Part shown: positions 1-38,431 of the stretch, in pieces
Layout: the number at the start of each line of letters is the position of its first letter
Position numbering within the stretch: position 1 is the stretch's first letter
Origin: a virus
Virus record (IMG/VR): IMGVR_UViG_3300045988_147738
Coordinates: 1 to 38,431 of that record
Reading direction: 5' to 3' (one strand)
DNA: 38,431 nt
Made by a program: the position numbers and the translations under genes
Notes under the pieces: model-generated
The model's database searches: none
Told to the model about the DNA's origin: nothing
What the model saw: the letters and a program-made list of their open reading frames with translations, nothing else

Positions 1-74
1 AAATGATTATGGTAGAATGATGATATTGATAAAAGAAAATGATTATGGTAGAATGATGATATTGATAAAAGAAA
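1..74. repeat. 36-bp tandem direct repeat (two full copies and a partial third) containing TTGATA and TGGTAGAAT promoter-like hexamers
   Basis: aatgattatggtagaatgatgatattgataaaagaa is repeated back to back at positions 3-38 and 39-74. Confidence 0.8.
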
Positions 75-242
75 ATGATAGAAGTTTGGTGCCCCCGCTC
101 GGTACCAACTCATCACTCAATTTCATCATTATCGTCATCCTCTGAATTTTTCAAGATACCCTTTCCAAAAAACGTCGAGCCCAGGTATTCTAATCGCCAA
201 TTTCCCAAATAAAAAATACCTGGGCCGACACGTTAATCGAAA

Positions 243-617
243 TTAAATGCGAGAAATCCAGTCGTTGAGGATTTCATCTACGGTTTTGCCCTTCTTAATC
301 GCACCCTTAGAGTTCGTCTCAAAACGGAAACCGGGGAGCTCAATCTTGAAGTTGCCTGGGTCCTTGTAGAATTTAAGGAAACTGTCCATTACCTTAATGA
401 CATCCTCGCCCTTCAACTCTGCGCCCTTATAGCCGACATAGGCCGCATAGTCGTTGATAGCATCGGCAACCGCTTCCGCTCGGGCCATCTTTTCCTTGTC
501 CTTCTTCTGGTCAGCATATGCCTTAGTGGCGTCATTCAGCATTGCAGTCATTTCCTTAGCAATATCCTCAGCGCTCTCGCCATTCATTAAACGCGTCAGA
601 ATATCGTTCTTATCCAT
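243..617 (-). CDS. hypothetical protein (124 aa)
   Basis: Intact ORF with ATG start, TAA stop and an AAGAGG ribosome-binding site. Two tandem TTGACA/TTGACT-N17/18-TATAAT promoters lie at 640-715 on the minus strand. Confidence 0.6.
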   Translation of the reverse strand: MDKNDILTRLMNGESAEDIAKEMTAMLNDATKAYADQKKDKEKMARAEAVADAINDYAAYVGYKGAELKGEDVIKVMDSFLKFYKDPGNFKIELPGFRFETNSKGAIKKGKTVDEILNDWISRI

Positions 618-847
618 TAAAATAACCTCTTTTCATTTTGTATACATATATTATACAAAAAATTTTTTTAAAAGTCAAGCGAGAAAAAAAATGGTTTTTT
701 TTATCATTATAACATAAATTTTTTTTTATGTCAAACCGGGCGGCATATGGGTACCGAGCGGGGCTCGGGTTTTGGGAAAATATGGGTGCATATGAGGGTC
801 GCTAGAATCACGGAAAATTTTCCATATGGGGTGGGAGAATGGAAATT

Positions 848-919
848 CGGACCGCAGCGCCCGCGCTCGGCCCGTTGTACCTCCCCTTTTATTATACCAC
901 ACCGGGCCCGCGTTGTCAA
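848..919. promoter_or_regulatory. promoter-hairpin module copy 1 (minus-strand TTGACA-N17-TGGTATAAT followed by an imperfect GC hairpin)
   Basis: Reverse complement of 891-919 reads TTGACAacgcgggcccggtgtggTATAAT. Hairpin at 848-875. A bidirectional terminator sits immediately to the right at 941-961. Confidence 0.6.
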
Positions 920-940
920 TAGGCAAAATGAACAAAAATT

Positions 941-961
941 AAGGGTGGATTTCTCCACCCT
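941..961. terminator. intrinsic terminator hairpin GGGTGGA-ttt-TCCACCC, with a T-run on the minus strand
   Basis: Perfect inverted repeat followed on the minus strand by TTAATTTTTGTT. Confidence 0.6.
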
Positions 962-1170
962 TAACAGAAGTTGTCAAAAATGTCATCAGACACTTGGCAC
1001 TCATACCAGCCGAAATATTCCCGGCGTGAGCGGAGTTCGCCCTCGATTTCATCCTCGTCTATGTCGGGATTTTGTATGTGGAGATACTGGATGACCCAGT
1101 GCTCGCTCGCGCATACATTCTCGTCAGCGTTGAAGTAAAATTTAGGGGTCACGATTATTCCTCCTCCCAC
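961..1170 (-). CDS. small acidic hypothetical protein; the likely GTG start at 1152 gives about 63 aa
   Basis: ORF ends in TAA. GGGAGGAGG ribosome-binding site 7 nt upstream of the GTG at 1150-1152, overlapping the stop of the upstream HD gene, which suggests translational coupling. Confidence 0.5.
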   Translation of the reverse strand: MGGGIIVTPKFYFNADENVCASEHWVIQYLHIQNPDIDEDEIEGELRSRREYFGWYECQVSDDIFDNFC

Positions 1171-1766
1171 GGCAGTTCGGGCGAAATTTCGTCCAGTTCC
1201 GCCTTGTCGTTATAGTCGGCGTTGATTGCTGGAATGTCGATAAACGCTCGGCTTGCCACATAGTCAGCCATGTGTACCAGTCTGTCGATAGGAGTGAAAG
1301 GTCTGTCCGCCTTGTCGGTAGTCCACTGACCCATGTGAGACTTGATGGCTTGCGTCAACTCATAGGGGCAGTCGCTCTCGAAAAACACCATCCATGTGCG
1401 GCAAACTTGGTCAGCGGCAATCGCGCCGTGCTTGGGGTACAACTCCTTGTCGAACTCGTGTAAGCCATACTTGGCTGTATCGTGGAGCAGACAGGCAACT
1501 CTTGCGTAGTCCTTGCGCTCGTCAGTGAGATACGCCCACTGGCTCATGCGGAGCAATTCCTCACAAAACCACGCGACCGCCTTAGTGTGGCGCACCAAAC
1601 CGCCCTCGCCTTGGCTCATAGCCGGATGGAACTTGCCGGAAGAACTCGCGCCGATAGTCCAGAAATAGTCGGGAACAATACAGTCGAAGTAGTAGCGCAC
1701 GAATGAGCGCAAATCCTCAGACTGAATGAACTCGATTTCGTGGTCAAAAAACTGGCTCTTATTCAT
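1155..1766 (-). CDS. HD-domain metal-dependent phosphohydrolase
   Basis: Motifs HTKAVAWF, LLHDTAKY and HMADYVASR match the HD superfamily H..HD..D pattern. Start chosen at MNKSQFF because of a GGAGG ribosome-binding site; the track's longer ORF runs into the promoter module. Confidence 0.65.
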   Translation of the reverse strand: MNKSQFFDHEIEFIQSEDLRSFVRYYFDCIVPDYFWTIGASSSGKFHPAMSQGEGGLVRHTKAVAWFCEELLRMSQWAYLTDERKDYARVACLLHDTAKYGLHEFDKELYPKHGAIAADQVCRTWMVFFESDCPYELTQAIKSHMGQWTTDKADRPFTPIDRLVHMADYVASRAFIDIPAINADYNDKAELDEISPELPWEEE

Positions 1767-1889
1767 AGATGCCTCCGTGCTGTTGGTGGGTTCCAGCTCC
1801 CTCAGATTGTTTATAGTATAGCGCATTTCGGGACAAAATGCAATAGTCAATTTATACAAATTTTCACCGGAAAAATTGTTGAAAATGTG

Positions 1890-1962
1890 TATTGACAAAA
1901 ATGCCGGGCGCCACAATCGTGAACGCCCGACCCATTATACCACAGTCAGAGGGCGTTGTCAA
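1890..1962. promoter_or_regulatory. promoter-hairpin module copy 2
   Basis: Minus strand reads TTGACAacgccctctgactgtggTATAAT, then hairpin GGGCG-ttcacgattgtg-GCGCCCG. Near-identical to copy 7 at 11226. Confidence 0.65.
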
Positions 1963-1983
1963 TAGTCAAATTGAATAAAAAAA

Positions 1984-2537
1984 TTATACTAAATTTTTTA
2001 TCATTTGTAAGGTTTTATCATACCCATATTTTTCAAGTAAACGAGTGATTTCTTTATCAAAAGGTTTTCTATTTTCAAAATTTAATTTTATATTTTCTTC
2101 ATTTATTACCCATCTTAAATTTTCAAGTCTATTATCTGTTTTTATTCCATTGATGTGGTCAACAACTAAATTGTTCGCATTTATATTTGTTTGAAAAGTA
2201 TTTAATACAAGTCTATGAATTCTATATTTTTTCTTATTTGGTAAATTTAAATATAAATATCCATTATTTAATACCCCTTTATAAAATACACCATCTTTTT
2301 TAATACGCCCCATTGTAGATATTAAATAGTCTGGTAAATCATAACACTGTTTCCATTCTTCATCAGGTAAATCCTAGGTTTCATCTTTTATAATATTATA
2401 ATAATTAGTGTGATTACGTTTTTCTATAAATACTAATTCAATTCCACGTCTTTTACAAAAAGCGATAAAAATATTTTTATCTACTCGTGAAGTTGTTAAA
2501 TTATATTTTTCTATAATTTCTTTTGTTGATAACATTA
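1984..2537 (-). CDS. HNH homing endonuclease (HNH_3-type) with one in-frame TAG at 2376-2378; AT-rich insert
   Basis: C-terminal region YRIHRLVLNTF...NLVVDHINGIKTDNRLENLRWV is a canonical HNH motif. Reading through TAG joins it in frame to an upstream 56-aa HTH-like region and an EEWK...GRIKKDG motif, with an AAGGAGG ribosome-binding site before the ATG at 2537. About 25% GC inside a 50% GC region. Confidence 0.7.
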
Positions 2538-2570
2538 TAGAACCTCCTTTAATATTCTATTATATTTAAA

Positions 2571-2628
2571 AAAACACACAAAATCATTACCCTGTTTTGT
2601 CCTGGGTAATGATTTTGTGTGTTTTATT
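2571..2628. terminator. long perfect hairpin (19-bp stem) flanked by an A-run and a T-run; bidirectional terminator
   Basis: ACACACAAAATCATTACCC-tgttttgtcc-tGGGTAATGATTTTGTGTGT. Confidence 0.7.
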
Positions 2629-3022
2629 ATAGGGCGATTTGGTAAGTTCGACGAATGGTAATTTCAACAGATTTCGGCTTCACAGGACAGGCAAATCTGT
2701 CATTTCTCACAAACACGCCGTATCCCTTTTTCTGCCAGTTCTCACGATTTTTGTCCTCGTATCGCAAAGTGTTATACTTGGAGAGCGGTAGCGAAAAATC
2801 GTAAATAAATTCAGAATTGTGCGGTAAACGGTGAACGGCGGTCTTGCGGTAGTTTCTTGTGTGTTCCTGCTGTCTACGCTTTAAGTCGTTAGTCGTGCCT
2901 ATTTTCAGAATGTAGACACCATTTTCATCATAATAGTGTCCAACATACAAAAATTCCTTGTTTTTCACACTTTTTTCCTCATTTTCTGGGGAAAATGGGG
3001 GATTTCTCCCCCATTTTCTCAA
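2627..3022 (-). CDS. GIY-YIG (T5orf172-like) domain protein
   Basis: FLYVGHYYDENGVYILKIGTTNDLKRRQQEH fits the GIY...YIG...R...E nuclease motif. The start is uncertain: TTG at 3022 or a downstream GTG with a GAGGA ribosome-binding site. Confidence 0.5.
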   Translation of the reverse strand: MRKWGRNPPFSPENEEKSVKNKEFLYVGHYYDENGVYILKIGTTNDLKRRQQEHTRNYRKTAVHRLPHNSEFIYDFSLPLSKYNTLRYEDKNRENWQKKGYGVFVRNDRFACPVKPKSVEITIRRTYQIAL

Positions 3023-3417
3023 CTTTTCGGCTTGCGCTTCTGCACAAGGGTCAGTTCATAGGAATTTTCACCAACCGAAAATGCAATCTGTCTCTCTTTA
3101 TTAGTTATTTCCACATTTTCGCAGGCATTTTCGCTGTTTTCGGTCAAAAATGTTGCGAGTTCAGCGATAATGGACGCTTTCGTGGGATTTGCCTTGCGTT
3201 CCCTTGTGGTGAATTTGTATGCGGTGGGGGTCTTGCGTGTGCCAGTCTTAGCGAATTTCTGTGCGACTTTGAGCTGTTCTTTCGACAGGTCAAAATCCTG
3301 TGCCTTACCCTTGTCGATTTCTCGGTCAGAGTTCCACACGGCTTCCGCTTCATCGGCAGTCCAGCCCATTTTCGCCATAGCGTTTTTCAGCCATTCGGTT
3401 TTGGAGATTTCAGCCAT
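3019..3417 (-). CDS. hypothetical protein (132 aa), paralog of 5565-5921
   Basis: Shares KTPTAYKFTTRERKANPTKASII with RQPTAYKFAPRERKANLTKQGII in the paralog. TGA stop. Confidence 0.6.
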   Translation of the reverse strand: MAEISKTEWLKNAMAKMGWTADEAEAVWNSDREIDKGKAQDFDLSKEQLKVAQKFAKTGTRKTPTAYKFTTRERKANPTKASIIAELATFLTENSENACENVEITNKERQIAFSVGENSYELTLVQKRKPKS

Positions 3418-3478
3418 AAAACACCGCCTTTTCAGATTTTAGAGGAGAGAGGGGGAGAGGTTATCTCCCCCTCTTGTC

Positions 3479-3976
3479 TCACTTGGCGGTGAAATACGCC
3501 TTGCGCTTATCCTCGATACGGTCTGCCTGACCGTCCAGCACCATCTGACGCACCAGAGAAGAAACCTTCTGATTGGACGCATCGGCGATAGCGGGGACAG
3601 ACTTCATCAGAGCGGACACGGTGTACTTCTCGCCCTTGTGGGCGTCCAGAAACGCCTTGATGTCAGCCTTGATACCCTCGTTTGCCACCTGCATGGCGGT
3701 CGGCTTCTTGTCCACGGTGTTCTTGCGGTCGAGCAGTTCCAGCTCGTGGTTCAGGAAGCCCGCCACATCAGCACCGGAAACCTTGACAGTGGCATCACCC
3801 TTGGAAATGTCATAGGTGGCGTCCATATCCACCTTGGACAGAATGGCGGTGAAATAGTCGCGCTTGGTCAGACGAACAGAGGAAGTGGTGTTAGTCATAG
3901 TATCAACCCTTTCTGCGTTTTTAGGTGTCGCCCACCATATTGTTGTTTCCCTCTTGGAACATCTATATTCTAACAC
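3479..3976 (-). CDS. hypothetical protein (165 aa), paralog of 5973-6374
   Basis: Shares LLDRKNTVDKKPT and SNQKVSSLVRQMVLDGQADRIEDKRKAYF with the paralog. A GC hairpin at 3440-3472 separates it from the downstream gene, as in the other copy. Confidence 0.6.
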   Translation of the reverse strand: MLEYRCSKRETTIWWATPKNAERVDTMTNTTSSVRLTKRDYFTAILSKVDMDATYDISKGDATVKVSGADVAGFLNHELELLDRKNTVDKKPTAMQVANEGIKADIKAFLDAHKGEKYTVSALMKSVPAIADASNQKVSSLVRQMVLDGQADRIEDKRKAYFTAK

Positions 3977-4163
3977 ATATCCGAAGCCTTGTCAAGACTT
4001 TTTTTCGGATTTGTGGAATTTTTTTAAGGTACACGCCCCGCCGGGAGGTCTTACCCTCTCCCTTGGAACAATTATATATTACCACACCCTTGGGCAAATT
4101 ACAATAGTCAATACTCACAAAAAAATGGGATTTTCAACATCTAAAATTTGTGCAAAAAAACAC

Positions 4164-4259
4164 TTGACAAAATTTGTGCCACGTGGTATAATGGAAATTT
4201 CGGGCGCCACATCCGTGAGCGCCCGACTCATTTTAACACATTTGAGCGCATTTGTCAAT
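4164..4259. promoter_or_regulatory. promoter-hairpin module copy 3: convergent plus and minus consensus promoters flanking a GC hairpin
   Basis: Plus strand reads TTGACA(4164)-N17-TATAAT(4187). Hairpin GGGCGCC-acatccgtga-GCGCCCG at 4202-4225. Minus strand reads TTGACA(rc 4254-4259)-N17-TAAAAT. Confidence 0.7.
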
Positions 4260-4299
4260 AGGCAATTTGCACAAAAATAAACCAGCGTAGTTGGCTACT

Positions 4300-4625
4300 A
4301 CGCTGGTTCCCCTGTTGATACTCGCCAGCCGTCCGGACAGCCAGCCCACTTCTACACAGCAGACCTAATCAGACGGGCGCAATGCCCACATAGATGGTCT
4401 TTCTCGGCACGCGGTGAATGTGGTTAGAACTTCGTACCCAGTCCCAATTTCTAACGAGGGGTTCAAGATAGCGTTTGAGAAGAAACTGTCGAGGGGACAA
4501 ACACTCTGTTAAAATCCATCTTGGCCGGGGAATTAAATATAATCAATCATTAAACTATCTAATCAAACAATGATTGACTACTAAGGTGGTCGATACAATC
4601 GCCATTTCATTTTTCTCACCTCACA
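4300..4625 (-). ncRNA. candidate noncoding RNA or long leader: an ORF-free interval between a consensus minus-strand promoter and a terminator
   Basis: No ORF longer than 10 codons has a ribosome-binding site. A minus-strand promoter at 4631-4660 (reverse complement TTGACAaatcgccccgcctgtgcTATACT) and the minus terminator hairpin at 4283-4310 bracket it. The plus-strand promoter of module 3 also reads into this interval. Confidence 0.35.
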
Positions 4626-4668
4626 ATATTAGTATAGCACAGGCGGGGCGATTTGTCAAGAGTTTTTT

Positions 4669-5352
4669 TCAAAACTCTAACTCGTCCCGAACGCCATAGC
4701 CGGAGAAATCGAGGATAACAGGAGAAATGCCAATGTACCCAATGTTTGAGCCGTGGAGGTCGTTTATGTGATACTTCTTGACGAACTCACAGAGGGCGAT
4801 AACCTTGCGCTTACCGTGGAGGGAAACGGCGACTTTTGCCCACAATCCATCAAGGTTGCGCCCATAGCCATTTTGGTCTGCCTTGCGGAACTGCCGTTCA
4901 ATCTGATTAACTCGGCAATCAGGAACAGTCTTTGCGATACGGATAAGACGATTTTTCAGCCCATCCTCTTGCCAGCAGATTTTATGAGCACAGTTGGTGA
5001 TAATCTGTTGAGCGGTGAACGCAATCGCTTCGCCATCACGAGGAGAAACAATGTAGCCAGCCAACATAGTGGCGGGGAAAAAATCAGCGAGGTTTGCGTC
5101 TACGGCTTTCTGATACACAGCCACTTCGCGCTCTGCGTCCCGCGTCTCCATAGACCATTTGAGAACATAGCCCAGCTCAGGAAACACCAGACATTCCTTG
5201 GTCGCGCCGTTGCTGGTGACTATCTTGACATTAGGGTATTCGTTGTGGATAACGCGGCACAGACTGTCTGCCTGTCTGACCAGTCTCGGCTTTTCAGATA
5301 CCGCCTGCTGAATGGTCAGGATAAAATCCTGAACTCTCGGAAACTCCATCAT
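4669..5352 (-). CDS. putative protein-kinase-like (APH/ePK-fold) protein
   Basis: HINDLHGSNIGY...ILDFSG resembles a kinase catalytic loop (HxDLHxxN) followed by a DFG-like motif. GAAAGGAG ribosome-binding site. Weak assignment. Confidence 0.35.
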   Translation of the reverse strand: MMEFPRVQDFILTIQQAVSEKPRLVRQADSLCRVIHNEYPNVKIVTSNGATKECLVFPELGYVLKWSMETRDAEREVAVYQKAVDANLADFFPATMLAGYIVSPRDGEAIAFTAQQIITNCAHKICWQEDGLKNRLIRIAKTVPDCRVNQIERQFRKADQNGYGRNLDGLWAKVAVSLHGKRKVIALCEFVKKYHINDLHGSNIGYIGISPVILDFSGYGVRDELEF

Positions 5353-5429
5353 TCATCGCTCCTTTCAGTATCATCATTATAGCACATTACAGGAGAATTA
5401 CAATAGGCAAAATGCACAAAATTTTGCGG

Positions 5430-5523
5430 AAAAAATTTCTGAAATTGTATAATGTGCCGAAAACCGGGCGCCAGGACCGTAAGCGCCCGGCCAAATTATA
5501 CCACACGCGCTCGGATTTGTCAA
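5430..5523. promoter_or_regulatory. promoter-hairpin module copy 4
   Basis: Minus strand reads TTGACAaatccgagcgcgtgtggTATAAT, then hairpin GGGCGCC-aggaccgtaa-GCGCCCG. A plus-strand TATAAT lies at 5448. Confidence 0.65.
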
Positions 5524-5564
5524 TAGGCAAAATACACAAAAAAAATGAGGGAGATTTCTCTCCC

Positions 5565-5921
5565 TCACTTGCGCGGGCAACTAAGCACAACCTTATATTT
5601 TGTTCCATCAAGCGTGAATAAAAATTCGCGCTCCGCGTTGCTCACGTTCAGGTCAGTCGCGCCGTATGTGGTCAGTGTCTCGGTCAGCAAGGTGATAATG
5701 CCTTGCTTCGTAAGATTAGCCTTTCTTTCTCTTGGCGCGAACTTGTATGCGGTCGGCTGGCGTCCTACTCCACGCGCTTTCTTGCTTGCCTTTTCCTGTT
5801 CCTCGGTCAGCGGAAACGGATTGCCGCCCTTGTCGATGATAGCATCTTGAACAATAATGTCCTTTGCTTCGGCTTCGGTACAATCCAGCTTTCGCATGAG
5901 GTCGGCAACTCGGTCAGTCAT
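5565..5921 (-). CDS. hypothetical protein (118 aa), paralog of 3019-3417
   Basis: See the paralog. TGA stop. Confidence 0.6.
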   Translation of the reverse strand: MTDRVADLMRKLDCTEAEAKDIIVQDAIIDKGGNPFPLTEEQEKASKKARGVGRQPTAYKFAPRERKANLTKQGIITLLTETLTTYGATDLNVSNAEREFLFTLDGTKYKVVLSCPRK

Positions 5922-5972
5922 GCGGTACTCCTTTCAGGGTTAGGGTGGGGAGCAATCCCCACCCTTTGAGGT

Positions 5973-6374
5973 TTACGCGCTCACCTTGCGGAAGAACGCC
6001 TTGCGCTTGTCCTCCACGCGCTCCACCTGCTTATCCAGCACCATCTGCCGGACGAGGGAGGACAGCTTCTGATTGCTCATGTCCTTACAGACGGGGAACT
6101 CTTTGAGCATCTCGCTGATGGAATACAGCCGGTTGCTCTCCATAGCGGACAGGACAGAGGTCTTGATAACCTCATTCTCCTGCTGGGTCTTGGTGGGCTT
6201 CTTGTCCACGGTGTTCTTGCGGTCGAGCAGGTCGATTTCGTGGGTGATGAACTCCACCAGCTTGGGGTCAGCCTTGACCTCGGACAGCTTGAGCAGGGCG
6301 GTGAAATTGTCGCGCTTGGTGGGCTTACGGGTGGCGGTGTTAGTGTTAGCCATAGTATCAATTCCTTTCTCCAT
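5973..6374 (-). CDS. hypothetical protein (133 aa), paralog of 3479-3976
   Basis: See the paralog. Proximal promoter at 6399-6450 (reverse complement TTGACAatcccagcgcaagctgtTATAAT). A GC hairpin at 5936-5962 lies between the two genes of the cassette. Confidence 0.6.
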   Translation of the reverse strand: MEKGIDTMANTNTATRKPTKRDNFTALLKLSEVKADPKLVEFITHEIDLLDRKNTVDKKPTKTQQENEVIKTSVLSAMESNRLYSISEMLKEFPVCKDMSNQKLSSLVRQMVLDKQVERVEDKRKAFFRKVSA

Positions 6375-6454
6375 TTGGTTTTGAGGGCTTTACCCTCCTG
6401 ACATTATCTATTATAACAGCTTGCGCTGGGATTGTCAAGACTTTTTTTCAAAAT

Positions 6455-6900
6455 TCTTGATTTTTTTTAATAGTGTCAACAGGGGAACGTCCCACAAGTA
6501 TTCACAACGACTTACAACCTCGCCTGACGAATAAGGTGTTGCTTGTTGGTTCAACGTTTCCATGCGCATGGACGAACTGACCAATCCACTCACTTTTCGT
6601 TCATCGTTTGGGATTACTGCGCTGGTATAGGGCTTACTTCCTTTACTCTCTCACGGTTCGCGACCCGTGGATTTCTTGGGTGGGGCTGTTCCCCTCTTGA
6701 CATTATCAATTATAGCACAGGTGCTGGGGATTGTCAAGAGGGAATTTGCGGGTCAGTTACCGAGTTATCACACCCGCCAGCGTGGCTCTTGCGAGGCGAC
6801 TTGCTGTTCCCTCTTGACATTATGTAGTATAGCACAGGTGGGTATGGATTACAATAGGCAAACTATACAAGTTTCGGGAAAAATAAATAAAAAAATTTAT
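6455..6900 (-). ncRNA. ORF-free interval driven by two tandem minus-strand promoters; candidate noncoding RNA(s)
   Basis: Promoters at 6715-6745 (reverse complement TTGACAatccccagcacctgtgcTATAAT, embedded in the palindrome CCTCTTGACA-N28-TGTCAAGAGG) and 6810-6845. No ORF in 6470-6700 has a ribosome-binding site. The 16-mer GTTCCCCTGTTGAYAC is shared with the interval at 4307. Confidence 0.3.
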
Positions 6901-6912
6901 GTAAAAAAACTC

Positions 6913-31204: not shown

Positions 31205-31932
31205 TGGATTACCGCTTAAATTTAATTTGCGGAACTGATATGTTGATTCCTGAATGTAATTTAGTCGCTCATCAACCAAGGATAAAAGAAATTTCATTTA
31301 TTGGGGAATCTGATTTTTTTATTGGAGCATAGACCCTCTGTTTACATAAAACAATGTTTATAGAGGACAAAACTATTCTAGACAGTATCAATAATTTTTA
31401 GATATTTATGACGATAATGTTATAGGATGAAACAAAGGATAAAAAAGCTAACATTTTAAATGTTTTAAATTTATTATTTCCATCATATAAAATAAATGTG
31501 ACACCAAACTCATTATTATTTATAAAGGAAGGTGTTCCTCCTATTACTGTAGATGGAAATAATTTTGAAGCATTACAAGAAGTGTTGCGTTTAATCTTTT
31601 GTATGCACAATGGCCCGATGGATTAGTAGGCTTTCAATCCTGCCAACGATAAGGCTCGTGAGATTGCTCAAAAGCTAATGCGAGGGAGACAGCGAGTTGC
31701 CGCCCAAAATGGTAATTCGAATGTAAGTGTTTTTAGTTAGTATATGTCAATCTTGACTATTGGATTAGGTTCAATGTCATTATAGGATTTGACAAATCTG
31801 ACAATGTTCCAATTATATGATTTAATGGAGAGATATACGCTATATACTGCTTGGGACCTGGATGTGCGCTAGCGTTTAGCTGGCGGTAAACCTGAAGGGA
31901 CCCCGGATAATTGGATGAAAAACATTCATTAA
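31204..31932 (+). CDS. hypothetical structural protein (about 242 aa); 8 in-frame TAG including a TAG-TAG doublet
   Basis: Start overlaps the upstream stop (TAATGG). Frame verified line by line with no TAA or TGA. Invisible in the standard-code track. Confidence 0.4.
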
Positions 31933-31959
31933 TTAAAAATACAAGGAGGAAATAACACT

Positions 31960-33039
31960 ATGAAATTCGGTGTCCGCGAAATTTGTGATGTTGTATTAAA
32001 GGCTAAGTCAGCACAGAAAATTGGTAATAAGATATTCTATGCTGGTGAACCTGTTATTTATTTTGACACCCTAAAAACTTCTAGTTTAGAAGGTGCTGCT
32101 ACCACTGTATATGCACAAGGTGGTCGTGGTAACTCTCGTTTGGTAGCATGGGAAGGTGAAAGAACTCTAACCTTCACTATGGAGGATGCTTTAATTTCTC
32201 CTGAAGGATTTATGATTCTTTCCGGTGCTGGCCTAATTGCTGCTAATGCAGATAAGCCAATTTATCAGCATATGACTGAAACTGTTGATGCTAGCGATTC
32301 TTTACGTTTTAAGTTTGATGCTGCTGGATTTAAGTTCGCTGTTTATACTGAAAATAAGCCTTATCTACCTGCTAATGCTGGTGATAACTTCGCTTATGTA
32401 ATGTTTATGAAGAATGGTGAAATTACTACTGAGCCTTATATTCCTGTTCATGAGGGTGATGATACAACTATTGATAATGAGGCTATGCCTGAGACTGTAA
32501 CTGATGTAGATGGTAAAACTTATTATCGTGTAGCTGTTATGGATCATAAAATGTATGTTGGTTTGGCTTCTTACGAGGATGAGCAAAATGGGGGCCATAA
32601 GTATACTCCAGAAAGTGGAGATAATACTGCTTATGATGTAGTTACTCTACCAAATCGTCTAAAGTTCGATTCTGTGTTAGTTGATTATTACACTGAGCGT
32701 AAGTCTGGCGCTACTCAGATGGAAATTACTGCTGATAAGTTTGGTGGTAACTATTATCTTGAGGCTTCTACTCTATTCCGTGATACTAATGGTGTAGATA
32801 TGCCTGCTGAGTTTATTATTCCTAACTGCAAGATTCAGTCTAACTTCACCTTTACTATGGCTTCTTCTGGTGATCCAAGTACATTTACTTTCACCTTAGA
32901 CGCATTCCCTGATTATACTCGTTTCGATCATAGTAAGAAAGTTCTGGCTGCAATTCAAGTAATTGAATATCTGGATAATGAGGATTTACATCGTCATAGC
33001 ACAGTTCACCAGAAATCTCACGATAGTTATAATTGGTAA
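31960..33039 (+). CDS. putative major tail protein (359 aa); no TAG
   Basis: Intact ORF with an AAGGAGG ribosome-binding site, followed by a terminator. Its position before the chaperone and tape-measure genes matches a siphovirus tail module. Confidence 0.45.
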   Translation: MKFGVREICDVVLKAKSAQKIGNKIFYAGEPVIYFDTLKTSSLEGAATTVYAQGGRGNSRLVAWEGERTLTFTMEDALISPEGFMILSGAGLIAANADKPIYQHMTETVDASDSLRFKFDAAGFKFAVYTENKPYLPANAGDNFAYVMFMKNGEITTEPYIPVHEGDDTTIDNEAMPETVTDVDGKTYYRVAVMDHKMYVGLASYEDEQNGGHKYTPESGDNTAYDVVTLPNRLKFDSVLVDYYTERKSGATQMEITADKFGGNYYLEASTLFRDTNGVDMPAEFIIPNCKIQSNFTFTMASSGDPSTFTFTLDAFPDYTRFDHSKKVLAAIQVIEYLDNEDLHRHSTVHQKSHDSYNW

Positions 33040-33057
33040 TTTAATTAAAAATTTTAT

Positions 33058-33095
33058 GGGGAGAGGATTTATTCCTCTTCCCATTTTTTTATTTT
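33058..33095 (+). terminator. intrinsic terminator
   Basis: GGGGAGAGGAtttaTTCCTCTTCCC followed by ATTTTTTTATTTT. Confidence 0.65.
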
Positions 33096-33107
33096 AGGAG
33101 AAAAAGA

Positions 33108-34199
33108 ATGGTTAATCAAGAAGGTATAGTTTTTGGAGGATATTTTTTATATAAAGAAGAATTTAAAAAGATCTTTCAAGAATTTTGGAATAGTGAATTA
33201 AAAAATATTTTTATTGAAAAAATATAGACTATAATTAAAAATTATTTAACTGAGGTAAATGGTAATATATTAGCAGTAAAAAATCCAAAAGCATTATATA
33301 ATTCTTGGGAATAGATTAATACTGAAGTATTTGGAAATACTCCAGTTTCTTTATTAGGTATTTTAAAATGGGATAAAAAATATCATTATACTTTTGTTAA
33401 TAAAGAATCTGATTTAATAAATAGCTATACTTCTCAGAAAATACAAGTTAATAAGACATTAATAGAAAAATATCGAACAACTTTAAATACAATATATTAG
33501 AGTGATATTGAAATGGCTTTAGAAGCACATTTTAATGATATGAAAAAATCAATTGATAAAGTAAAATTAACTAAGGTGGAAGGGCATGACGTACATTTAA
33601 CTTTAGGTAAATATTATAAAAATACAGAATGGTATAAACGAATTCAAGATACACATATGACTAATAAGAGTTTATCTGAAATATTTTATAAGAAAAATAA
33701 AGTAGCTGCTCAAGGATAGATGTATGATGCTTTTATTAATCATATTAGTCGAAAACATGTGGAATATTTAAGAGCTTTAAATAATTTAGACAGTCCAATA
33801 GAACTTTCTCCATTTGACAAATCAGTTTATAATGAAGAAGGACGATGGAATTTTATCCAATTAGTTATGGACTCTTTGAATTCAACGGCTTGGTATCGCG
33901 GAGGTGATGCTATTGCGGCGGATAGCAGAACTCGTCAAGTATTATTTAATATTTAGGTAAAATCAGGTAAAAAAGGACGTAGTTGGGATATTGCTAGTAT
34001 TTAGTTTTTAACCTTTATTAATAATTTAAATTCCTATTTAAATAAAACGGGAGAGGAAATAGCTGTTTTTTTATATGAAAATTTAAAAATTACTATGGCG
34101 ACATCTGTTGATAGTAAAAAAATTGATAAAGATTTAGAAAAAGAAATTTTAGATAATGTAAGAAAAAATTTAAAATTATCTGGGTTGACAATAAACTAA
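33108..34199 (+). CDS. hypothetical protein (about 363 aa); 6 in-frame TAG
   Basis: Track ORFs 33513-33719 and 33720-33956 are joined in frame. Frame verified with no TAA or TGA until 34197. Confidence 0.45.
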
Positions 34200-34242
34200 A
34201 TTTTTAGTATAATATAAATAAGTGTAAAAGGAGGATTTTGAA

Positions 34243-34767
34243 ATGGCAAAAGTAACATTTTCAAAGTTAAGTTTAAGTAAAAATACAGAAGTATCAACCT
34301 TTGAATGGGGAGACTAGATTATTGAAGTCAAAGATTATCTTCCTATTGGAGATAAGTTAAATCTTATTTCAGAAATTATTAATGATTCCATTGATAAAAA
34401 CGGTTATTATAACCCTGCCCGTGTATATCTTCATACTATTTTAAAAATGATTATGGCATATACAAATATAAGTTTTACTGACAAGCAAAAAGAAGACCCA
34501 AAGAAATTATATGATTTAGTAGTAGGTTCTGGTTTTTCCGCTAAGGTATTTGGAGAAATTAATCCAGGAGAATATGCACAAATTAAAAGTTGGGTAGCAG
34601 AAACTATTCATTCAATTTATGAGTATAAAAATTCTGCGGCGGGTATTTTAGATATTATTTCAACCGATTATAAAGATACAACATTTGATATGGAACAATT
34701 AACTAATGATATTCAGAATCCTGAAACATTAGGATTACTAAAAGATGTTTTGACCAAGTTGGGATAA
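34243..34767 (+). CDS. putative tail assembly chaperone (about 174 aa); 1 in-frame TAG
   Basis: AAAGGAGG ribosome-binding site. Lies immediately upstream of the tape-measure gene. Track ORF 34447-34767 is in frame. Confidence 0.4.
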
Positions 34768-34814
34768 TTAAACTATTTAATTTTTTAAAATTAAATAGGA
34801 ATAATCAAGTGTAT

Positions 34815-34853
34815 GGGTGTGAGAAGATTATTTCTCACACCCATTTTTTTTGT
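34815..34853 (+). terminator. intrinsic terminator or attenuator before the tape-measure gene
   Basis: GGGTGTGAGAAgattatTTCTCACACCC followed by ATTTTTTTT. Confidence 0.6.
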
Positions 34854-34882
34854 TTATATTATGAGAGAAAGGAGTCCCGTTT

Positions 34883-37800
34883 ATGGCAAAACAATTAAAT
34901 GTTGCATTAGATTTTACTGCGAATACTACTCAAGCGAAATAGCAGATTTAGGAATTGCAGTAGTTATTAACTAAAGTAGCATATAGTACTGATTTAGGTA
35001 TTGATCCCAGTCAAATGAAAGCAGCTTCTGCTGCGGCTAAAGAGCTAGCTATTCATTTAAATGAAGCATATAATTAGAAAACTGGTAATTATGATTTAAG
35101 TAAATTAAATGCTAGTTTAGCTAAATCAAAAACTAATGTGACTGAATTATCTACCAGTTTACTTCAAGCGGGAACAACTGGACAACAAGCATTTATAAAA
35201 TTAGCTCAATCAATAGCGGCGGCTGATTAGCCAATGATTACATTAAATGCTCGTTTACAAGATTTTTTAACTACTGTTAAAAATACAGTTAAATGGCAAA
35301 TTTCTTCAAGTATGATTCATGGTGTAATGGGGGCTTTGCAAGGAGCTTATCATTACGCTTAGAATTTAAATAGTTCATTAAATGATATCCGAATTGTTAC
35401 TGGTCATAATATTGACTATATGGATAAATTTGCTGATAGAGCAAATAAAGCAGCAAAGGCATTAAGCACTTCTACATTAAATTATACTGATGCTTCTTTG
35501 ATTTACTATCAACAGGGTTTATCAGATAAAGAAGTAGAAGATAGAACTGCGGTCACAATTAAAATGGCTAATGCTGCTGGCGAAAGCGCAGATAAGATAT
35601 CAGATCAATTAACTGCTGTCTGGAATAACTTCTATGATGGATCATAGTCATTAGAATATTATGCTGATGTTATGACTGCATTAGGTGCAGCTACTGCATC
35701 AAGCACAGATGAAATTGCGGCTGGATTAGAAAAATTCGCGGCTGTGTCTAATACAGTAGGTTTAAGTTATGAGTACGCTACTTCTGCTTTAGCAACTGTT
35801 ACTGCAACAACTCGTCAATCTGCTGATGTAGTTGGTACTGCATTTAAAACATTATTTGCTCGTATTCAAGATTTAGAGTTAGGTAAAACTCTTGATGATG
35901 GTACTACATTAGGCAAATATTCTCAAGCTCTTGAAACTGTTGGTGTTTCTATTAAAACAGCAGACGGCGAGTTGCGAGAGATGGATGATATTCTTGATGA
36001 TTTAGGTGAAAAATGGAATTCATTTGACGCTGAAGGGAATCCATTAATTTCTAAAGATGCTAAAGTGGCATTAGCTCAAACTGTTGCTGGTGTTCGTCAA
36101 TATACACAATTAATGGCATTAATGGATAAATGGGATTTTATGAAAGAAAATCTCGAAACTGCTCGTAATGCTACTGGAACATTAACTGAACAATAGAAAA
36201 TTTATGAAGAATCTTGGGAAGCCGCTAATAAGCGTTTACAAGCTTCATTCCAAGCTTTATACACCGATTTAATTGATGATAAATTTTTTATTAAATTTAC
36301 AGATTTTTTATCTGATATGGTTGATGGTGTTGATTCTTTTATTGATAAAATTGGTGGAATTAAACCTTTATTATTAGGATTTTTATCATTAATTGGTTAG
36401 ACATTAAGCTCTAAAATTTAGCCGGCTTTAGATAATGTAATAAATAATATTCAAATTTTAGTAGGTGGAGCAGATAAAGTTTATGCTAAAATATCTAAAG
36501 AAACTTCTGATAATATCAAACTATAGTTAGAAGCAAGAACTAATTTTACTCCAGCTCAAGAGTAGGAATTAAAAAATTCTTAGGAATTATTAGGAGTAAA
36601 AAATAAATTAGCAACAGTGTCTGAAAATTTATCTGTTAGTGAAAAAAGATATTATGAAAATGAAATTCAATTTATTGAAAAACAATAGTAGGAAACAGTA
36701 AAATTAATTAAATTACGAGAACAATTAAATAAAGATACTAATCCTATTGATTTAAATGCTCCTAATCAAATTTATGATTATGGTACTAGTTATTTACAAA
36801 AATTAAAAGCTAATAAAGATAAAGCTTAGTAGTCATATCGTAATAATCCATCTGAAAGTAATTAGGCAGATTTAGTTGCTGCTAGAAATGATTTAGTTTT
36901 TTTCTAGAATGATAAATTAGATGTTCAGGAATAGGCAGCGTCTCAATTAGCACAAACAGTTGAAAAATTAACAAATGCTTATAAAACTTTTATTGAAGTT
37001 GGGCATGAAACAAATGAAACTTTATTATCAGGAAATGATTTATACTCTTTAACAATTGAAGGACTTAAAAAATTAGGGACTCAGTATACTAAATTAAATG
37101 GTGAAATTGATTTTGAAACGGTTCGAACTTCTATTGATATGCTTATTGGTCCAGTAGATGAAGTAACAAAATCTTCAAAAGATTTTCAAAATGCTTTAGA
37201 AGCTATTGAAAGTGCATTAGATGGAGGAAAGCCAAAAGAAGTAAGTTAGGCTTTTAAATAGTTGGCAGAAGTTCTAAAAAATACTACTGTTGAAGGAAAA
37301 AATGCGGCTAATGCTTTAGAACAAATGGGTCGTTCAACAAGTAAATCAATGAAATAGGCTAAAGGTGATATTTAGGCGCATGGTAAAGCATTAAAATAGT
37401 GGGGATAGGCTACTAAAGAAGCAAAAGAGGCACAAGAAGGACTCAATCAAGCAGTTATTAATTTTAAACCAGTTCATAAAATACCTTTTACTTAGAGTTT
37501 AATATCATTGGCTTCTGCTTGTGGTTCTGCCGCGATGACATTGCAATCATTTAATTCTATGATGCAAACATTATCTGATCCTGATATTTCTGAATGGGAA
37601 AAATTTACATCTGTTTTATTTAGTATTTCTATGATTGTTCCTGGGGTGTCTAGTGTTTTACGAGGATTAGGTACTGCTAATGCCTTTTTACAACAATAGT
37701 CTTAGAAACAATTTCTTACACTTTCTTTAGAAAATGTAGCGATAGAGGCTAATACAATAATATTAACTCAGAATCAAAAAAAGAAAATAGATAATATATT

Positions 37801-38431
37801 AGCTAGTAAAAAATTAAATGATGCTTTTAAAAAGAATGCTATACAAGCAGTTTTAGCTGCAGGAGGAGTGGTTACTGAAACTACAGCGTTGCAAGCTGAA
37901 GCTATTGTAGCAGGAAAGGCGACGGTAACAACCAATGCTTTTTCTACAGCTTTAAAAGGTTTATGGTTAAATATTGCTCCAGTTTTAGCCACTATTTGGC
38001 CTTTAATTATAGCTTTAGGAGCTTTGGTAGCGGCTTGGGCGATATATAATAATGCTACTGGGGCAGCAGCTGAAAACGCGGAATAGAATAATAAAAATTT
38101 AGAAGAAACTAAAACTGCTTTAGATGATGTAAATAGTAGATTAAATACATTAAATAGTACTTTATCTGGTTTAAATGATAAACGTAAAAATATTGACAAT
38201 CTTACTTATGGAACTGTAGAATGGCGAGATGCTGTTAATGAGTTAAATGATGAAGTTGATGATTTAATTGAAAAATATGGTTTAATAAAAGGATAGGATT
38301 GGGATATTGATGCTCAAGGGCGTAAGTATATTACAGATACTGGCGCGGAGACTATGCGTACTTCAATGGATGAAGAACGTTCTAATTTATTATCAGCAAA
38401 AGCTGCTCAATAGAAATTTAAAGATAAATAT
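34883..38431 (+). CDS. tail tape-measure protein, partial (at least 1183 aa, runs off the window end), with about 33 in-frame TAG
   Basis: Track ORFs 35420, 35672, 37508 and 37868 are all in one frame (position mod 3 = 2). TP901-type tape-measure-like region ALGAATASSTDEIAAGLEKFAAVSNTVGLSYEYATSALA. Hydrophobic segment LAPVLATIWPLIIALGALVAAWAIY. No TAA or TGA across 3.5 kb. GAAAGGAG ribosome-binding site. Confidence 0.7.

What the first reader, a model, noticed from the sequence alone, without database searches (positions are those of the whole stretch)
1..38431. Sharp split in composition and genetic code near 16 kb: unrecoded GC-rich early region versus recoded AT-rich late region
Positions 1-16,050 are about 50% GC. 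They hold about 30 short minus-strand genes with no in-frame TAG, and TAG serves as a stop only once (12430). From about 16,050 the sequence is about 30% GC and TAG is a frequent sense codon. Both halves use the same TTGACA-N17-TATAAT promoters and AAGGAGG ribosome-binding sites, so they appear adapted to the same host transcription machinery. This fits the reported pattern for recoded phages, where early genes can be translated before a suppressor is expressed. The size of the GC difference is unusual, so the early region might have been acquired horizontally, or the contig might be a chimeric assembly.
Basis: seen in the sequence. Interest (0 to 1): 0.75.

Follow-up and report, generated by a model that had tools for sequence, protein, structure and literature searches.

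The report
GC-rich early block in recoded gut phage
The window comes from a very common ~198-kb human-gut phage that reads TAG as glutamine, and the sharp composition break is the real edge of its early gene block, which avoids TAG entirely and stays far more GC-rich than the phage's own mutation bias would allow.

Summary
GC drops from 44.6% to 28.7% at position 16,084. Third-codon-position GC (GC3) is 0.61 in the left genes and 0.20 in the late genes. TAG is a sense codon (Gln) in the AT-rich part and is absent from the GC-rich genes, both as sense and as stop.

The contig is not a chimera. More than 20 independent assemblies from different samples and assemblers carry the same junction.

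The left block is a ~15.4-kb early region. It holds about 30 short lineage-specific genes and 33 near-consensus sigma-A promoters, against 4 such promoters in the 20 kb of late genes. The right part is an SPbeta-like (Yon/Yom) structural module.

Conspecific genomes carry an array of at least 28 tRNAs, including a CUA suppressor behind a perfect consensus promoter.

Three details are wrong: promoters are not shared by both halves, TAG-containing AT-rich genes sit inside the "early" half, and the strand switch is at ~18 kb, not at the GC break.

Simple horizontal acquisition is not supported. Block genes have syntenic homologues in related phages, and TAG stops are purged.

Isolated-singleton polymorphisms put the AT-rich part at mutational equilibrium, while the early block sits far above it.

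The same GC step recurs across a clade with standard-code, TAG-recoded and TGA-recoded members.

The recoding pattern is known. The composition partition looks undescribed.

The parts
650..16084 (-). Immediate-early block: about 30 short genes (GC3 0.45-0.87), free of TAG as sense and as stop. It is dense in near-consensus sigma-A promoters with an extended -10 element and in intrinsic terminators. Gene content varies between strains.
   Evidence: Identity to other strains is 87-94% with gene gain and loss, against 96-98% for the late module.
1984..2535 (-). AT-rich island (GC 0.22, GC3 0.12): HNH_3/NUMOD4 homing-endonuclease gene with an in-frame TAG at codon 55 and a strong AAGGAGGT ribosome-binding site.
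14807..16250 (-). Gene-poor boundary region of 1.4 kb with GC 0.447. It holds six copies of the palindrome ATTGTTAAAAATTTAACAAT (15,006-15,704), an A/C-rich stretch followed by a G/T-rich low-complexity stretch, hairpins, and one mini-gene.
   Evidence: No gene is called here on the identical contig.
15727..15822 (-). ORF for a 31-aa hydrophobic peptide with its own promoter (15876-15848, TAGACA-17-TATAAT with TG), an AAAGGAGG ribosome-binding site and a terminator (15740-15720).
   Evidence: Read from the sequence; promoter and terminator. The gene itself is inferred and is not in the public gene calls.
16055..16120 (-). The composition step itself (maximum-likelihood change point 16,084). 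It lies in the intergenic stretch after the last AT-rich minus-strand gene, next to a C-rich hairpin plus T-run.
16251..17921 (-). AT-rich minus-strand operon of five genes (GC3 0.12-0.23) behind an 11/12 promoter at 17980-17952. It includes a DUF7352 protein (16718-17011) and an AbrB/MazE-type DNA-binding protein (16396-16713) with an in-frame TAG at codon 27.
   Evidence: (proteins 2-5 only).
18090..38431 (+). Late module, AT-rich with TAG read as Gln. SPbeta-like Yon/Yom proteins: large terminase 20395-22128 (10 TAG), portal 22706-24169, major capsid YonB-like 26745-27851 (0 TAG), tail tube YomU-like 31960-33039 (0 TAG), tape measure 34883 onward (32 TAG, runs off the window).
   Evidence: (Pfam YonB, YonD_N, YonG_N, YomU, YomV, YomW on identical products).
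4157..4280 (+). One of four copies of a ~137-nt module (also at about 1848, 6893 and 9316; a related copy at 13043). Each has a consensus plus-strand (antisense) promoter, a GC-rich hairpin, and a facing minus-strand promoter.
   Evidence: (families D2, D6, D12).

Best explanation
The break at about 16,084 is a boundary between two classes of genes within one genuine phage genome.

Left of the break is the immediate-early regulon. It consists of about 30 small, fast-evolving, lineage-specific genes. Each is served by near-consensus host sigma-A promoters, so host RNA polymerase can transcribe them and host tRNAs and release factors can translate them right after injection. These genes carry no TAG as sense or as stop, so they give the same product whether TAG terminates or is read as Gln.

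The rest of the genome sampled here sits at the phage's AT-biased mutational equilibrium of about 31% GC. That includes the structural module, the homing endonucleases and a radical-SAM cluster outside the window. This part lacks consensus promoters. It tolerates TAG because the phage carries a CUA suppressor tRNA within an array of at least 28 tRNAs.

Under TAG=Gln a CAG-to-TAG change is synonymous. AT-biased mutation therefore fills AT-rich genes with TAG (91 TAG against 17 CAG in ordinary late genes). This accounts for the gene-by-gene coupling of low GC3 with TAG.

Shown here: contiguity, the promoter partition, TAG absence and TAG=Gln, the suppressor tRNA, the AT mutational equilibrium of the late part, and a net GC-eroding mutation flux in the early block.

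Inferred:
- That the block is temporally early.
- That its GC-richness is actively maintained. Candidate forces are selection for efficient expression by the unmodified host machinery, GC-biased gene conversion in this highly recombining block, or a mix of both.
- That TAG is excluded from the block because it would terminate early proteins before suppression is established.
For: Contiguity:
- The window is identical to ENA ERZ28661994 scaffold_15 (199,522 bp).
- The same GC step appears in 10 + 4 + 7 further loci from other samples.

Partition by gene:
- GC3 is bimodal, 0.45-0.87 against 0.12-0.23, with nothing in between.
- TAG occurs only in the low-GC3 genes. These include AT-rich inserts inside the GC-rich region.

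TAG exclusion:
- The early genes have 0 TAG among 93 CAA+CAG Gln codons. The late genes have a 32% TAG share.
- 0 of 27 early genes end in TAG, against 15% in standard-code relatives.

Code and tRNAs:
- TAG aligns with Gln in standard-code relatives in 123 of 264 aligned cells.
- A suppressor tRNA(CUA) lies in an array of at least 28 tRNAs in two conspecific IMG/VR genomes.
- A 12/12 consensus promoter sits about 110 nt upstream of the suppressor.

Promoters: 33 on the left against 4 on the right.

Mutation spectrum, from isolated singletons among 17 strains:
- Late: 68 GC-to-AT changes and 67 AT-to-GC changes. The implied equilibrium GC of 0.31 equals the observed value.
- Early: 41 GC-to-AT and 16 AT-to-GC (p=0.0013). 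The implied equilibrium is about 0.25 against an observed 0.457.

The force or history acts over a long time:
- A GC step between the small-gene block and the always AT-rich late module (0.30-0.385) recurs in relatives whose large terminase is only 47-89% identical to the two relatives' terminases used as queries. These relatives include standard-code, TAG-recoded and TGA-recoded members.
- phAss-1 shows 34-40% against 50-56% GC, and its TAG share is 33-40% in genes with GC3 below 0.35 and 7-9% above.

The block is ancestral:
- Its genes have homologues in the syntenic blocks of EF1 and phAss-1.
- The family of gene 5973-6353 is confined to this lineage.

tRNA match: ordinary late genes use codons cognate to the phage tRNAs more often than early genes do, 49.9% against 28.8%.
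Against: - No expression data exist. 'Early' rests on promoter sequence only.
- The AT-rich operon 16,251-17,921 also has a near-consensus promoter and one TAG. Promoter class, composition and code therefore do not coincide perfectly.
- GC enrichment is not confined to codons. The noncoding boundary region is 44.7% GC and intergenic DNA in the block is 42%, against 29% in the late part. Codon selection alone cannot explain the enrichment.
- Early-gene codon preferences (CTG, GGC, CGC, ATC, ACC) differ from those of the TAG-free, presumably highly expressed late genes (GCT, GGT, CGT, ACT). The correlation of the two shifts is only r=0.34. This does not look like one shared set of host-optimal codons.
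- The net GC-to-AT flux in the early block is also what a decaying foreign segment would show.
- Some recoded relatives have no step (L147, L115, L128) and some standard-code relatives have one (L065, L133-135, L137). The step is therefore not tied to recoding itself.
- The host is unknown, so 'host-like' composition could not be tested.
Confidence: 0.6

Rival explanations
1. The early block, or much of its content, was acquired horizontally from a GC-richer donor such as another phage or the host gene pool. It has not yet ameliorated to the phage's AT-rich equilibrium. Its lack of TAG sense codons reflects an origin under the standard code.
For: - Point mutations in the block are net GC-eroding, 41 against 16.
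- Codon usage is that of a ~50%-GC genome and differs from the codon bias of the TAG-free late genes.
- Noncoding DNA in the block is GC-rich too.
- The block is the most mosaic part of the genome between strains.
Against: - The block is present with the same boundaries in every strain seen.
- Four of its genes have homologues in the syntenic small-gene blocks of EF1 (AT-rich there) and phAss-1, at 25-48% identity over the aligned stretches, so they are old residents.
- The most GC-rich gene has only 199 homologues among 5.8 billion proteins, all on contigs of at most about 200 kb.
- TAG stops, which a standard-code donor would bring at about 15%, are absent at 0 of 27.
- The promoters and ribosome-binding sites are uniform and phage-specific repeats.
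- A GC step recurs in deep-branching relatives whose synonymous sites must be saturated.
Confidence: 0.2
2. GC-biased gene conversion. The early block recombines far more often than the rest of the genome, and biased repair of heteroduplexes pushes all of its sites, coding and noncoding, toward GC.
For: - The block is mosaic, with 22-23% of sites segregating against 8% in the late genes.
- GC is raised at all three codon positions and in noncoding DNA.
- Mutation is AT-biased, yet GC is high.
Against: - Clustered variants in the block, which are probably recombination imports, are themselves biased GC-to-AT, 157 against 100. This is the opposite of what conversion-driven enrichment predicts in this sample.
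- AT-rich inserts persist inside the block.
- I found no paper describing GC-biased conversion in phages, though I did not search for one specifically.
- This rival does not explain why TAG is excluded.
Confidence: 0.12
3. Assembly chimera, or a junction between a prophage and host DNA. The two halves would come from different organisms.
For: Only the size of the GC step.
Against: - The identical junction appears in many samples and with several assemblers, inside 195-201-kb contigs whose start points differ.
- The left half encodes phage-type genes (PHROG 5889 and 20187, NT5C-like, HNH) and carries phage-specific repeats.
- Phage genes continue for more than 70 kb beyond it, including the tRNA array.
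Confidence: 0.01

Closest known systems
Stop-codon-recoded (code 15, TAG=Gln) gut phages with early genes compatible with the standard code. Examples are crAss-like, Lak and the 'gemstone' clades of Borges et al. (bioRxiv 10.1101/2021.08.26.457843). Their Agate clade is the best fit by description: a mean of ~154 kb, with standard-code, TGA-recoded and TAG-recoded members.
   Same: - In-frame TAG is concentrated in structural genes.
- A suppressor tRNA is encoded by the phage.
- One set of genes is free of the recoded codon.
- Close relatives use different codes: standard-code, TAG-recoded and TGA-recoded members all appear.
   Different: - That paper links recoding to low GC of whole genomes. 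Its text shows no mention of an intragenomic GC partition.
- Here GC3 is 0.61 against 0.20 within one genome.
- TAG is purged as a stop as well as a sense codon in the early block.
- The suppressor sits behind a consensus host-type promoter.
- Membership in Agate could not be tested, because no reference sequence was available.
[quoted passage not shown]
   Same: - The major capsid protein is 50% identical to phAss-1 and 41% to EF1.
- TAG=Gln, a tRNA array with CUA suppressors, and a long tape-measure protein.
- Homologous small-gene block proteins.
- phAss-1 shows the same coupling of low GC3 with TAG.
   Different: - About 198 kb against 136 kb.
- No nucleotide-level similarity, so it is not in that genus.
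- In the sections I read, the paper does not mention GC heterogeneity, the promoter-dense block, or TAG avoidance as a stop.
- EF1 uses the standard code and has no GC step.
Host-takeover or pre-early modules of large virulent phages, such as the Bacillus phage SPO1 terminal-redundancy genes and the T5 pre-early region. This comparison rests on my own knowledge, not on a paper read here.
   Same: A compact cluster of many very short, lineage-specific genes, each with strong host-type promoters and terminators. It is bordered by a repeat-rich noncoding stretch.
   Different: - No homology to those modules was found. PHROG hits are few and of unknown function.
- A terminal redundancy could not be tested.
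- A composition step of this size is not a feature I know from those phages.
Bacillus phage SPbeta structural module (Yon/Yom proteins).
   Same: Pfam YonB, YonD_N, YonG_N, YomU_Tube, YomV_2nd and YomW hit the products of the late module.
   Different: From my own knowledge, SPbeta is a standard-code temperate phage of ~134 kb. No integrase or lysogeny gene was seen in the ~130 kb examined here.

Membership tests
Code-15 (TAG=Gln) recoded phage | In-frame TAG in conserved essential genes, which become intact only if TAG is read as sense | tested here: met
   ORF coverage rises from 0.51 to 0.98. The large terminase has 10 TAG, the portal 8 and the tape measure 32.
Code-15 (TAG=Gln) recoded phage | TAG positions correspond to glutamine in homologues that use the standard code | tested here: met
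   Gln in 123 of 264 aligned cells. The next most frequent are Glu (25) and Lys (21).
Code-15 (TAG=Gln) recoded phage | Phage-encoded suppressor tRNA with anticodon CUA | tested here: met
   Not in the window. It is present in conspecific genomes IMGVR_UViG_3300045988_140174 and _160359 (L188 12351-12424, L192 12523-12596). Its amino-acid identity was not determined.
Code-15 (TAG=Gln) recoded phage | A subset of genes free of the recoded codon, translatable by the host code | tested here: met
   0 TAG in about 30 GC-rich genes. The same holds for the GC-elevated genes farther left.
Phassvirus genus (phAss-1) | Nucleotide identity of about 80% or more, and shared synteny with phAss-1 | tested here: not met
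   No megablast match to OQ749652. The capsid protein is only 50% identical. The relationship is at family-group level only.
Agate clade (Borges et al.) | Placement within the clade on a large-terminase tree | not testable with these tools
   No Agate reference sequence is available. The match is by description only: genome size, gut origin and mixed codes.
SPO1/T5-type early host-takeover module | A cluster of short genes, each behind strong host-type promoters | tested here: met
   28 gene-strand promoters with at most 1 mismatch in 15.4 kb. The generic scan found 90 sites against 37 expected.
SPO1/T5-type early host-takeover module | Location in a long terminal repeat, or in the DNA that enters the cell first | not testable with these tools
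   This needs read coverage or physical ends. Contig start points differ between assemblies.
SPO1/T5-type early host-takeover module | Sequence homology to known takeover genes | tested here: not met
   Of 20 block proteins, 17 have no PHROG hit at all. The other 3 hit families of unknown function, an NT5C-like nucleotidase, or give only weak matches (E > 0.002).

The most novel reading that the evidence does not exclude
Composition and code together would form a two-regime translation programme. The early block would be kept GC3-rich and TAG-free by selection so that the unmodified host apparatus decodes it. Everything else would drift to the AT equilibrium and depend on the phage's own near-complete tRNA set, including the suppressor. 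Module-level AT-richness would then be the precondition that lets either TAG or TGA recoding arise repeatedly in this clade. This is the low-GC precursor model of Borges et al., acting within genomes rather than between them.
Probability: 0.25. Interest if true: 0.8.

Novelty: new variant of a known kind. Interest (0 to 1): 0.55.

Why it matters
Recoded phages are thought to switch the cell's genetic code part-way through infection, but how recoding arises and how genes are sorted between the two codes is unsettled.

This very common gut phage shows three partitions that largely coincide at one boundary. The first is promoter class, the second is synonymous-site composition, and the third is use of TAG as either sense or stop. 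Population data add that only the early block is held away from the mutational equilibrium.

Close relatives with standard, TAG and TGA codes share the AT-rich late module. The clade is therefore a natural series for testing two questions. One is whether module-level AT-richness precedes recoding. The other is whether early genes are under selection to be readable in both codes.

In practice, the GC step will split such genomes in composition-based binning. Relatives were found inside bins labelled Mollicutes, Gastranaerophilales, Bacteroidales and Treponema.

Tried and rejected
- **Nucleotide searches.** The two halves against GenBank phages gave nothing useful.
- **tRNAs and RNA families in the window.** No tRNA and no Rfam family at gathering score.
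- **First polymorphism analysis.** Searches suggested that both compartments are displaced from a common equilibrium in opposite directions. I rejected that reading after separating isolated from clustered singletons. The AT-to-GC excess in the late region lies in clustered variants, which are probably recombination imports. Isolated variants there are balanced.
- **One shared set of host-optimal codons.** The idea that early genes share the codon set of the highly expressed late genes is only weakly supported: r=0.34, with different preferred codons in four-fold families.
- **AbrB-like regulator as a timer.** I considered that its TAG at codon 27 might be a conserved sensor of suppression. 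The TAG is present in 21 of 21 strains. But relatives at 31-41% identity have Lys (AAA/AAG) at that position whatever their code, so there is no clade-level support.
- **Structure in the low-complexity boundary stretch.** Folding as RNA gave z=-1.1, so no notable structure.
- **Host identification.** The one genome-contig scan returned relatives inside MAG bins of many unrelated taxa, which is evidently mis-binning. The host remains unknown.
- **An error of mine.** I discarded that result and repeated the search with the real sequence.
- **The TAG-terminated ORFs 12430-12990 and 15680-15952.** They have no convincing ribosome-binding site and are not in the public gene calls.

Full report
**1. 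The observation**

Sliding-window GC shows 42-51% over most of 1-16,000 and 26-34% over most of the rest. The means are 0.456 and 0.316. A two-segment likelihood fit puts the step at 16,084, with 0.446 on the left and 0.287 on the right.

With the standard code, ORFs of at least 100 codons cover 51% of the right half. With TAG as sense they cover 98%. With TGA as sense they cover 56%. The resulting plus-strand ORFs are long and carry up to 32 in-frame TAGs each.

The left half holds about 30 minus-strand genes with AAGGAGG-type ribosome-binding sites.

The split is mainly at synonymous sites:

| Measure | Left (GC-rich) genes | Late genes |
|---|---|---|
| GC1 | 0.51 | 0.435 |
| GC2 | 0.365 | 0.326 |
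| GC3 | 0.61 | 0.20 |
| Non-genic DNA | 0.42 | 0.29 |

Per gene, GC3 is bimodal. Values are 0.45-0.87 or 0.12-0.23, with nothing in between.

**2. Not an assembly artefact**

A TAG-free protein just right of the break (16718-17011) occurs with exactly this sequence in 326 blocks of the public collection. Ten loci from different samples and assemblers show the same gene order and the same GC step.

The window is 100% identical to ENA ERZ28661994 scaffold_15 (199,522 bp). Window position 1 corresponds to record position 5,367.

Four further genomes of 176-201 kb, found through the terminase, and seven IMG/VR contigs show the step too.

Variants of the large terminase at 99% identity or more fill the top 120 hits. 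Single variants occur on up to 705 contigs. This is one of the common large phages of the human gut.

**3. What the two parts are**

*Right part.* Products identical to those of the window hit Pfam YonB, YonD_N, YonG_N, YomU_Tube, YomV_2nd and YomW. This is an SPbeta-like head and tail module with terminase, portal, capsid, tube and tape measure.

TAG positions in eight late proteins align with Gln in 123 of 264 cells in relatives that use the standard code. The next most frequent residues are Glu (25) and Lys (21). TAG therefore encodes Gln.

Four late genes have no TAG: 25792-26727, the capsid gene, 27940-28527 and the tube gene. They have a distinct codon bias toward GCT, GGT, CGT, ACT, AAG and CAG.

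*Left part.* Few proteins have recognisable families:
- an HD-domain protein (1155-1766);
- an NT5C-like nucleotidase (8749-9195);
- a PHROG 20187 protein (7980-8636);
- most others have no hit.

The block is packed with repeats that turn out to be promoters. There are 33 matches to TTGACA-N16-18-TATAAT with at most one mismatch in 1-16,050. Of these, 28 are on the gene strand, and most have the extended -10 TG. The 20 kb of late genes have only 4 such matches. Terminator-like hairpins are also enriched, 32 found against 18 expected.

Between strains the block is mosaic, at 87-94% identity with genes gained and lost. The late module is 96-98% identical.

The statement about ribosome-binding sites holds.

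**4. TAG in the block**

With gene models that agree with the calls on the identical contig, none of the GC-rich genes has a TAG sense codon. That is 0 TAG against 93 CAA+CAG codons, where the late genes have a 32% TAG share.

None ends in TAG either. The other TAG-terminated ORF, 15680-15952, lacks a ribosome-binding site and is not on record.

The same simple caller finds 15% TAG stops (20 of 131) in the equivalent blocks of standard-code relatives, against 0 of 27 here. The one apparent TAG stop here is the in-frame TAG of the HNH gene.

The block is thus free of TAG altogether, so its products are the same in either code.

The exceptions are informative. Each of the following is both AT-rich (GC3 0.12-0.26) and TAG-containing, apart from one of the three flanking genes, which has no TAG:
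- the 30%-GC island at 1984-2535, an HNH_3/NUMOD4 homing endonuclease with TAG at codon 55;
- three opposite-strand genes just left of the window;
- a 309-aa insert in another strain.

**5. The boundary itself**

The strand switch is at 17,921/18,090, not at the GC step. Between the two lie five AT-rich minus-strand genes behind an 11/12 promoter at 17980-17952.

Next comes a 1.4-kb gene-poor region (14,807-16,250), which is already GC-rich at 0.447. It holds:
- six copies of the palindrome ATTGTTAAAAATTTAACAAT, all within 15,006-15,704, and none in about 110 kb of other sequence from this phage;
- an odd A/C-rich stretch followed by a G/T-rich stretch, which has no notable RNA fold;
- a 31-codon hydrophobic mini-ORF with its own promoter, ribosome-binding site and terminator.

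**6. The rest of the genome**

I walked leftward on IMG/VR contig 140174 (197,697 bp). The features met, in order, are:
- TAG-free genes with raised GC (40-46%), which continue to about 42 kb from the break. Consensus promoters are confined to the first 15.4 kb.
- An 11-kb stretch of 20% GC, with GC3 of 0.11. It encodes radical-SAM-type proteins with up to 12 TAG each.
- An array of at least 28 tRNAs. It includes tRNA(CUA), which has a 12/12 consensus promoter about 110 nt upstream.

The genome is therefore a patchwork in which low GC3 and TAG always go together. The break near 16 kb is the sharpest of several such boundaries.

**7. Relatives**

The closest described phage is phAss-1 (OQ749652, PMC10607447). 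Its capsid protein is 50% identical. Enterococcus phage EF1 is at 41%.

phAss-1 also reads TAG as Gln and has 36 tRNAs with three CUA suppressors. My analysis shows it has the same heterogeneity. GC is 34-40% around the terminase and portal genes and 50-56% in its small-gene and tRNA region. The TAG share of Gln-type codons is 33-40% in genes with GC3 below 0.35 and 7-9% above. In the sections I read, the paper does not mention this.

EF1 uses the standard code and has no step.

Four block proteins have homologues in the syntenic small-gene blocks of EF1 and/or phAss-1.

I surveyed about 50 loci found with the large terminases of two standard-code relatives, which they match at 47-89% identity:
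- The late module is always 30-38.5% GC, while the upstream block ranges from 30% to 47%.
- A step occurs in standard-code members (L065, L133-135, L137), TAG-recoded members (L092, L094, L095, L120, L130) and TGA-recoded members (L142, L148, L159).
- A step is absent in some recoded members (L147, L115, L128) and in many standard-code members.

I could not test that assignment.

**8. Mutation pressure**

I projected 17 non-redundant strains onto the window. The first counts suggested that both compartments were moving toward the middle.

Separating isolated singletons from clustered ones changed the picture. Isolated singletons stand in for point mutations. Clustered ones are probably recombination imports.

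| Singleton class | Region | GC-to-AT | AT-to-GC | Reading |
|---|---|---|---|---|
| Isolated | Late | 68 | 67 | Balanced; implied equilibrium GC 0.31, as observed |
| Isolated | Early block | 41 | 16 | p=0.0013; equilibrium about 0.25, against observed 0.457 |
| Clustered | Late | 71 | 135 | Excess of AT-to-GC, consistent with imports from GC-richer relatives |
| Clustered | Early block | 157 | 100 | Net GC-to-AT |

The noncoding boundary region behaves like the block, with 89 GC-to-AT changes against 56 AT-to-GC.

The AT-rich genome is therefore simply at its mutational equilibrium. The early block is either held above it or decaying toward it.

**9. Explanation**

The best reading is a partition by gene class. 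One class is a host-transcribed immediate-early regulon that is neutral with respect to the code and GC-rich. The other is the rest of the genome, which sits at the AT equilibrium and tolerates TAG because the phage supplies a suppressor.

Under TAG=Gln a CAG-to-TAG change is synonymous. AT-biased mutation then explains why ordinary late genes have 91 TAG but only 17 CAG, and why TAG tracks low GC3 gene by gene.

Several observations argue that the high GC is maintained rather than freshly imported:
- the recurrence of the step in deep relatives;
- the old residency of block genes;
- the lineage-restricted family of the most GC-rich gene (199 homologues, 52-98% identity, all on contigs of at most about 200 kb);
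- the purge of TAG stops.

What maintains it is not settled. Ordinary late genes use phage-tRNA-cognate codons more than early genes do, 49.9% against 28.8%. That fits a host-tRNA regime and a phage-tRNA regime. But noncoding DNA in the block is GC-rich too, and early-gene codon preferences differ from those of the TAG-free late genes. Codon selection alone is therefore insufficient.

Horizontal origin with slow decay, and GC-biased gene conversion, remain as rivals. Chimerism and a prophage-host junction are excluded.

**10. Verdict**

The feature is real.

The recoding pattern is known. I did not find the following described in the papers I read:
- the sharp, promoter-linked GC3 partition;
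- the complete absence of TAG from the early block;
- the evidence that only this block is away from mutational equilibrium;
- the recurrence of the step across a clade with three codes.

Noticed in passing
window 16396-16713 (-): An AbrB/MazE-type DNA-binding protein (PF04014, residues 26-63) has an in-frame TAG at codon 27, right before the domain. The TAG is present in 21 of 21 strains. Relatives at 31-41% identity have Lys at that position whatever their code. The gene lies next to the palindrome cluster, so it is a candidate regulator of the early block.
   Followed up: partly
window 15006-15704: There are six copies of the 20-nt palindrome ATTGTTAAAAATTTAACAAT, three of them spaced 28 nt apart. 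They are confined to the noncoding boundary region and absent from about 110 kb of other loci of this phage. This could be an operator cluster or an origin. A weaker seventh copy lies at about 14023.
   Followed up: partly
window 15400-15600 (-): A strand-asymmetric low-complexity stretch: about 100 nt of A/C-rich sequence (ACACAACAC...), then about 80 nt of G/T-rich sequence (GGTATGGTATGG...GGGGTGGGG). Folding as RNA shows no notable structure (z=-1.1). Its function is unknown.
   Followed up: partly
window 15727-15822 (-): A 31-codon ORF (MSIIYKVVRFITAVAVVAGTGILMCLICLPH) with an extended -10 promoter, an AAAGGAGG ribosome-binding site and a clean terminator. It is not in the public gene calls and is probably a small membrane peptide.
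   Followed up: no
window 4157-4280, 6906-7029, 9329-9452, 13043-13164 (also 1848-1984): A repeated module of about 137 nt. Each copy has a perfect plus-strand promoter, antisense to the genes, then a GC-rich hairpin, then a facing minus-strand promoter. These could produce short antisense RNAs or cause promoter interference.
   Followed up: no
window 11637-11867, 11883-12113, 12128-12358 (-); also 3479-3976 vs 5973-6353: Tandem paralogues within the early block. Three consecutive 76-aa ORFs share 15-36 identical residues of 76 in pairwise comparison. Two other genes share a 98-nt stretch at 78% identity.
   Followed up: partly
window 25792-28527 and 31960-33039 (+): Four late genes lack TAG entirely, are GC-richer (38-41%), and prefer GCT, GGT, CGT, ACT, AAG and CAG. 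This looks like translational selection on the most abundant virion proteins. Their codon set differs from that of the early block.
   Followed up: partly
L171 7000-18900 / L188 13900-17900 (IMG/VR 140174, about 94.7-106 kb and 120-124 kb): Blocks of extremely AT-rich DNA (18-24% GC, GC3 about 0.1). They encode several proteins with radical-SAM (CxxxCxxC) motifs, one of them confirmed by Pfam, plus unassigned proteins of 380-510 aa. Genes carry up to 12 TAG each. One block is absent next to the tRNA array in some strains.
   Followed up: partly
L188 / L192 (tRNA array): The array of at least 28 tRNAs includes unusual anticodons: Ile-UAU and Phe-AAA. It has U34 species for nearly all four-codon boxes. 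No tRNA-Gln was seen in the part read. Perfect consensus promoters precede several of the tRNAs, including the suppressor.
   Followed up: partly
L103, L108, L142, L148, L159 (IMG/VR relatives): Some relatives of the same clade appear TGA-recoded, with ORF coverage rising from 0.69-0.81 to 0.93-0.96 when TGA is read as sense. Others use the standard code. Three codes therefore occur around one conserved structural module.
   Followed up: partly
L022-L042 (genome contigs): Relatives of this phage sit in MAG bins labelled Mollicutes, Gastranaerophilales, Erysipelotrichaceae, Bacteroidales, Treponema and Muribaculaceae. This is most likely composition-driven mis-binning of AT-rich phage contigs.
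   Followed up: no
L084 and L097 (IMGVR_UViG_3300032167_000002, 402,311 bp): One 402-kb IMG/VR contig carries two different large-terminase relatives, matching the query terminase of relative L025 at 75% and 67% identity, about 200 kb apart. This could be two phage genomes joined in one record.
   Followed up: no
L008 19641-20294: In one strain a GIY-YIG homing endonuclease occupies a position within the early block. This is further evidence of mobile-endonuclease traffic in the region.
   Followed up: no
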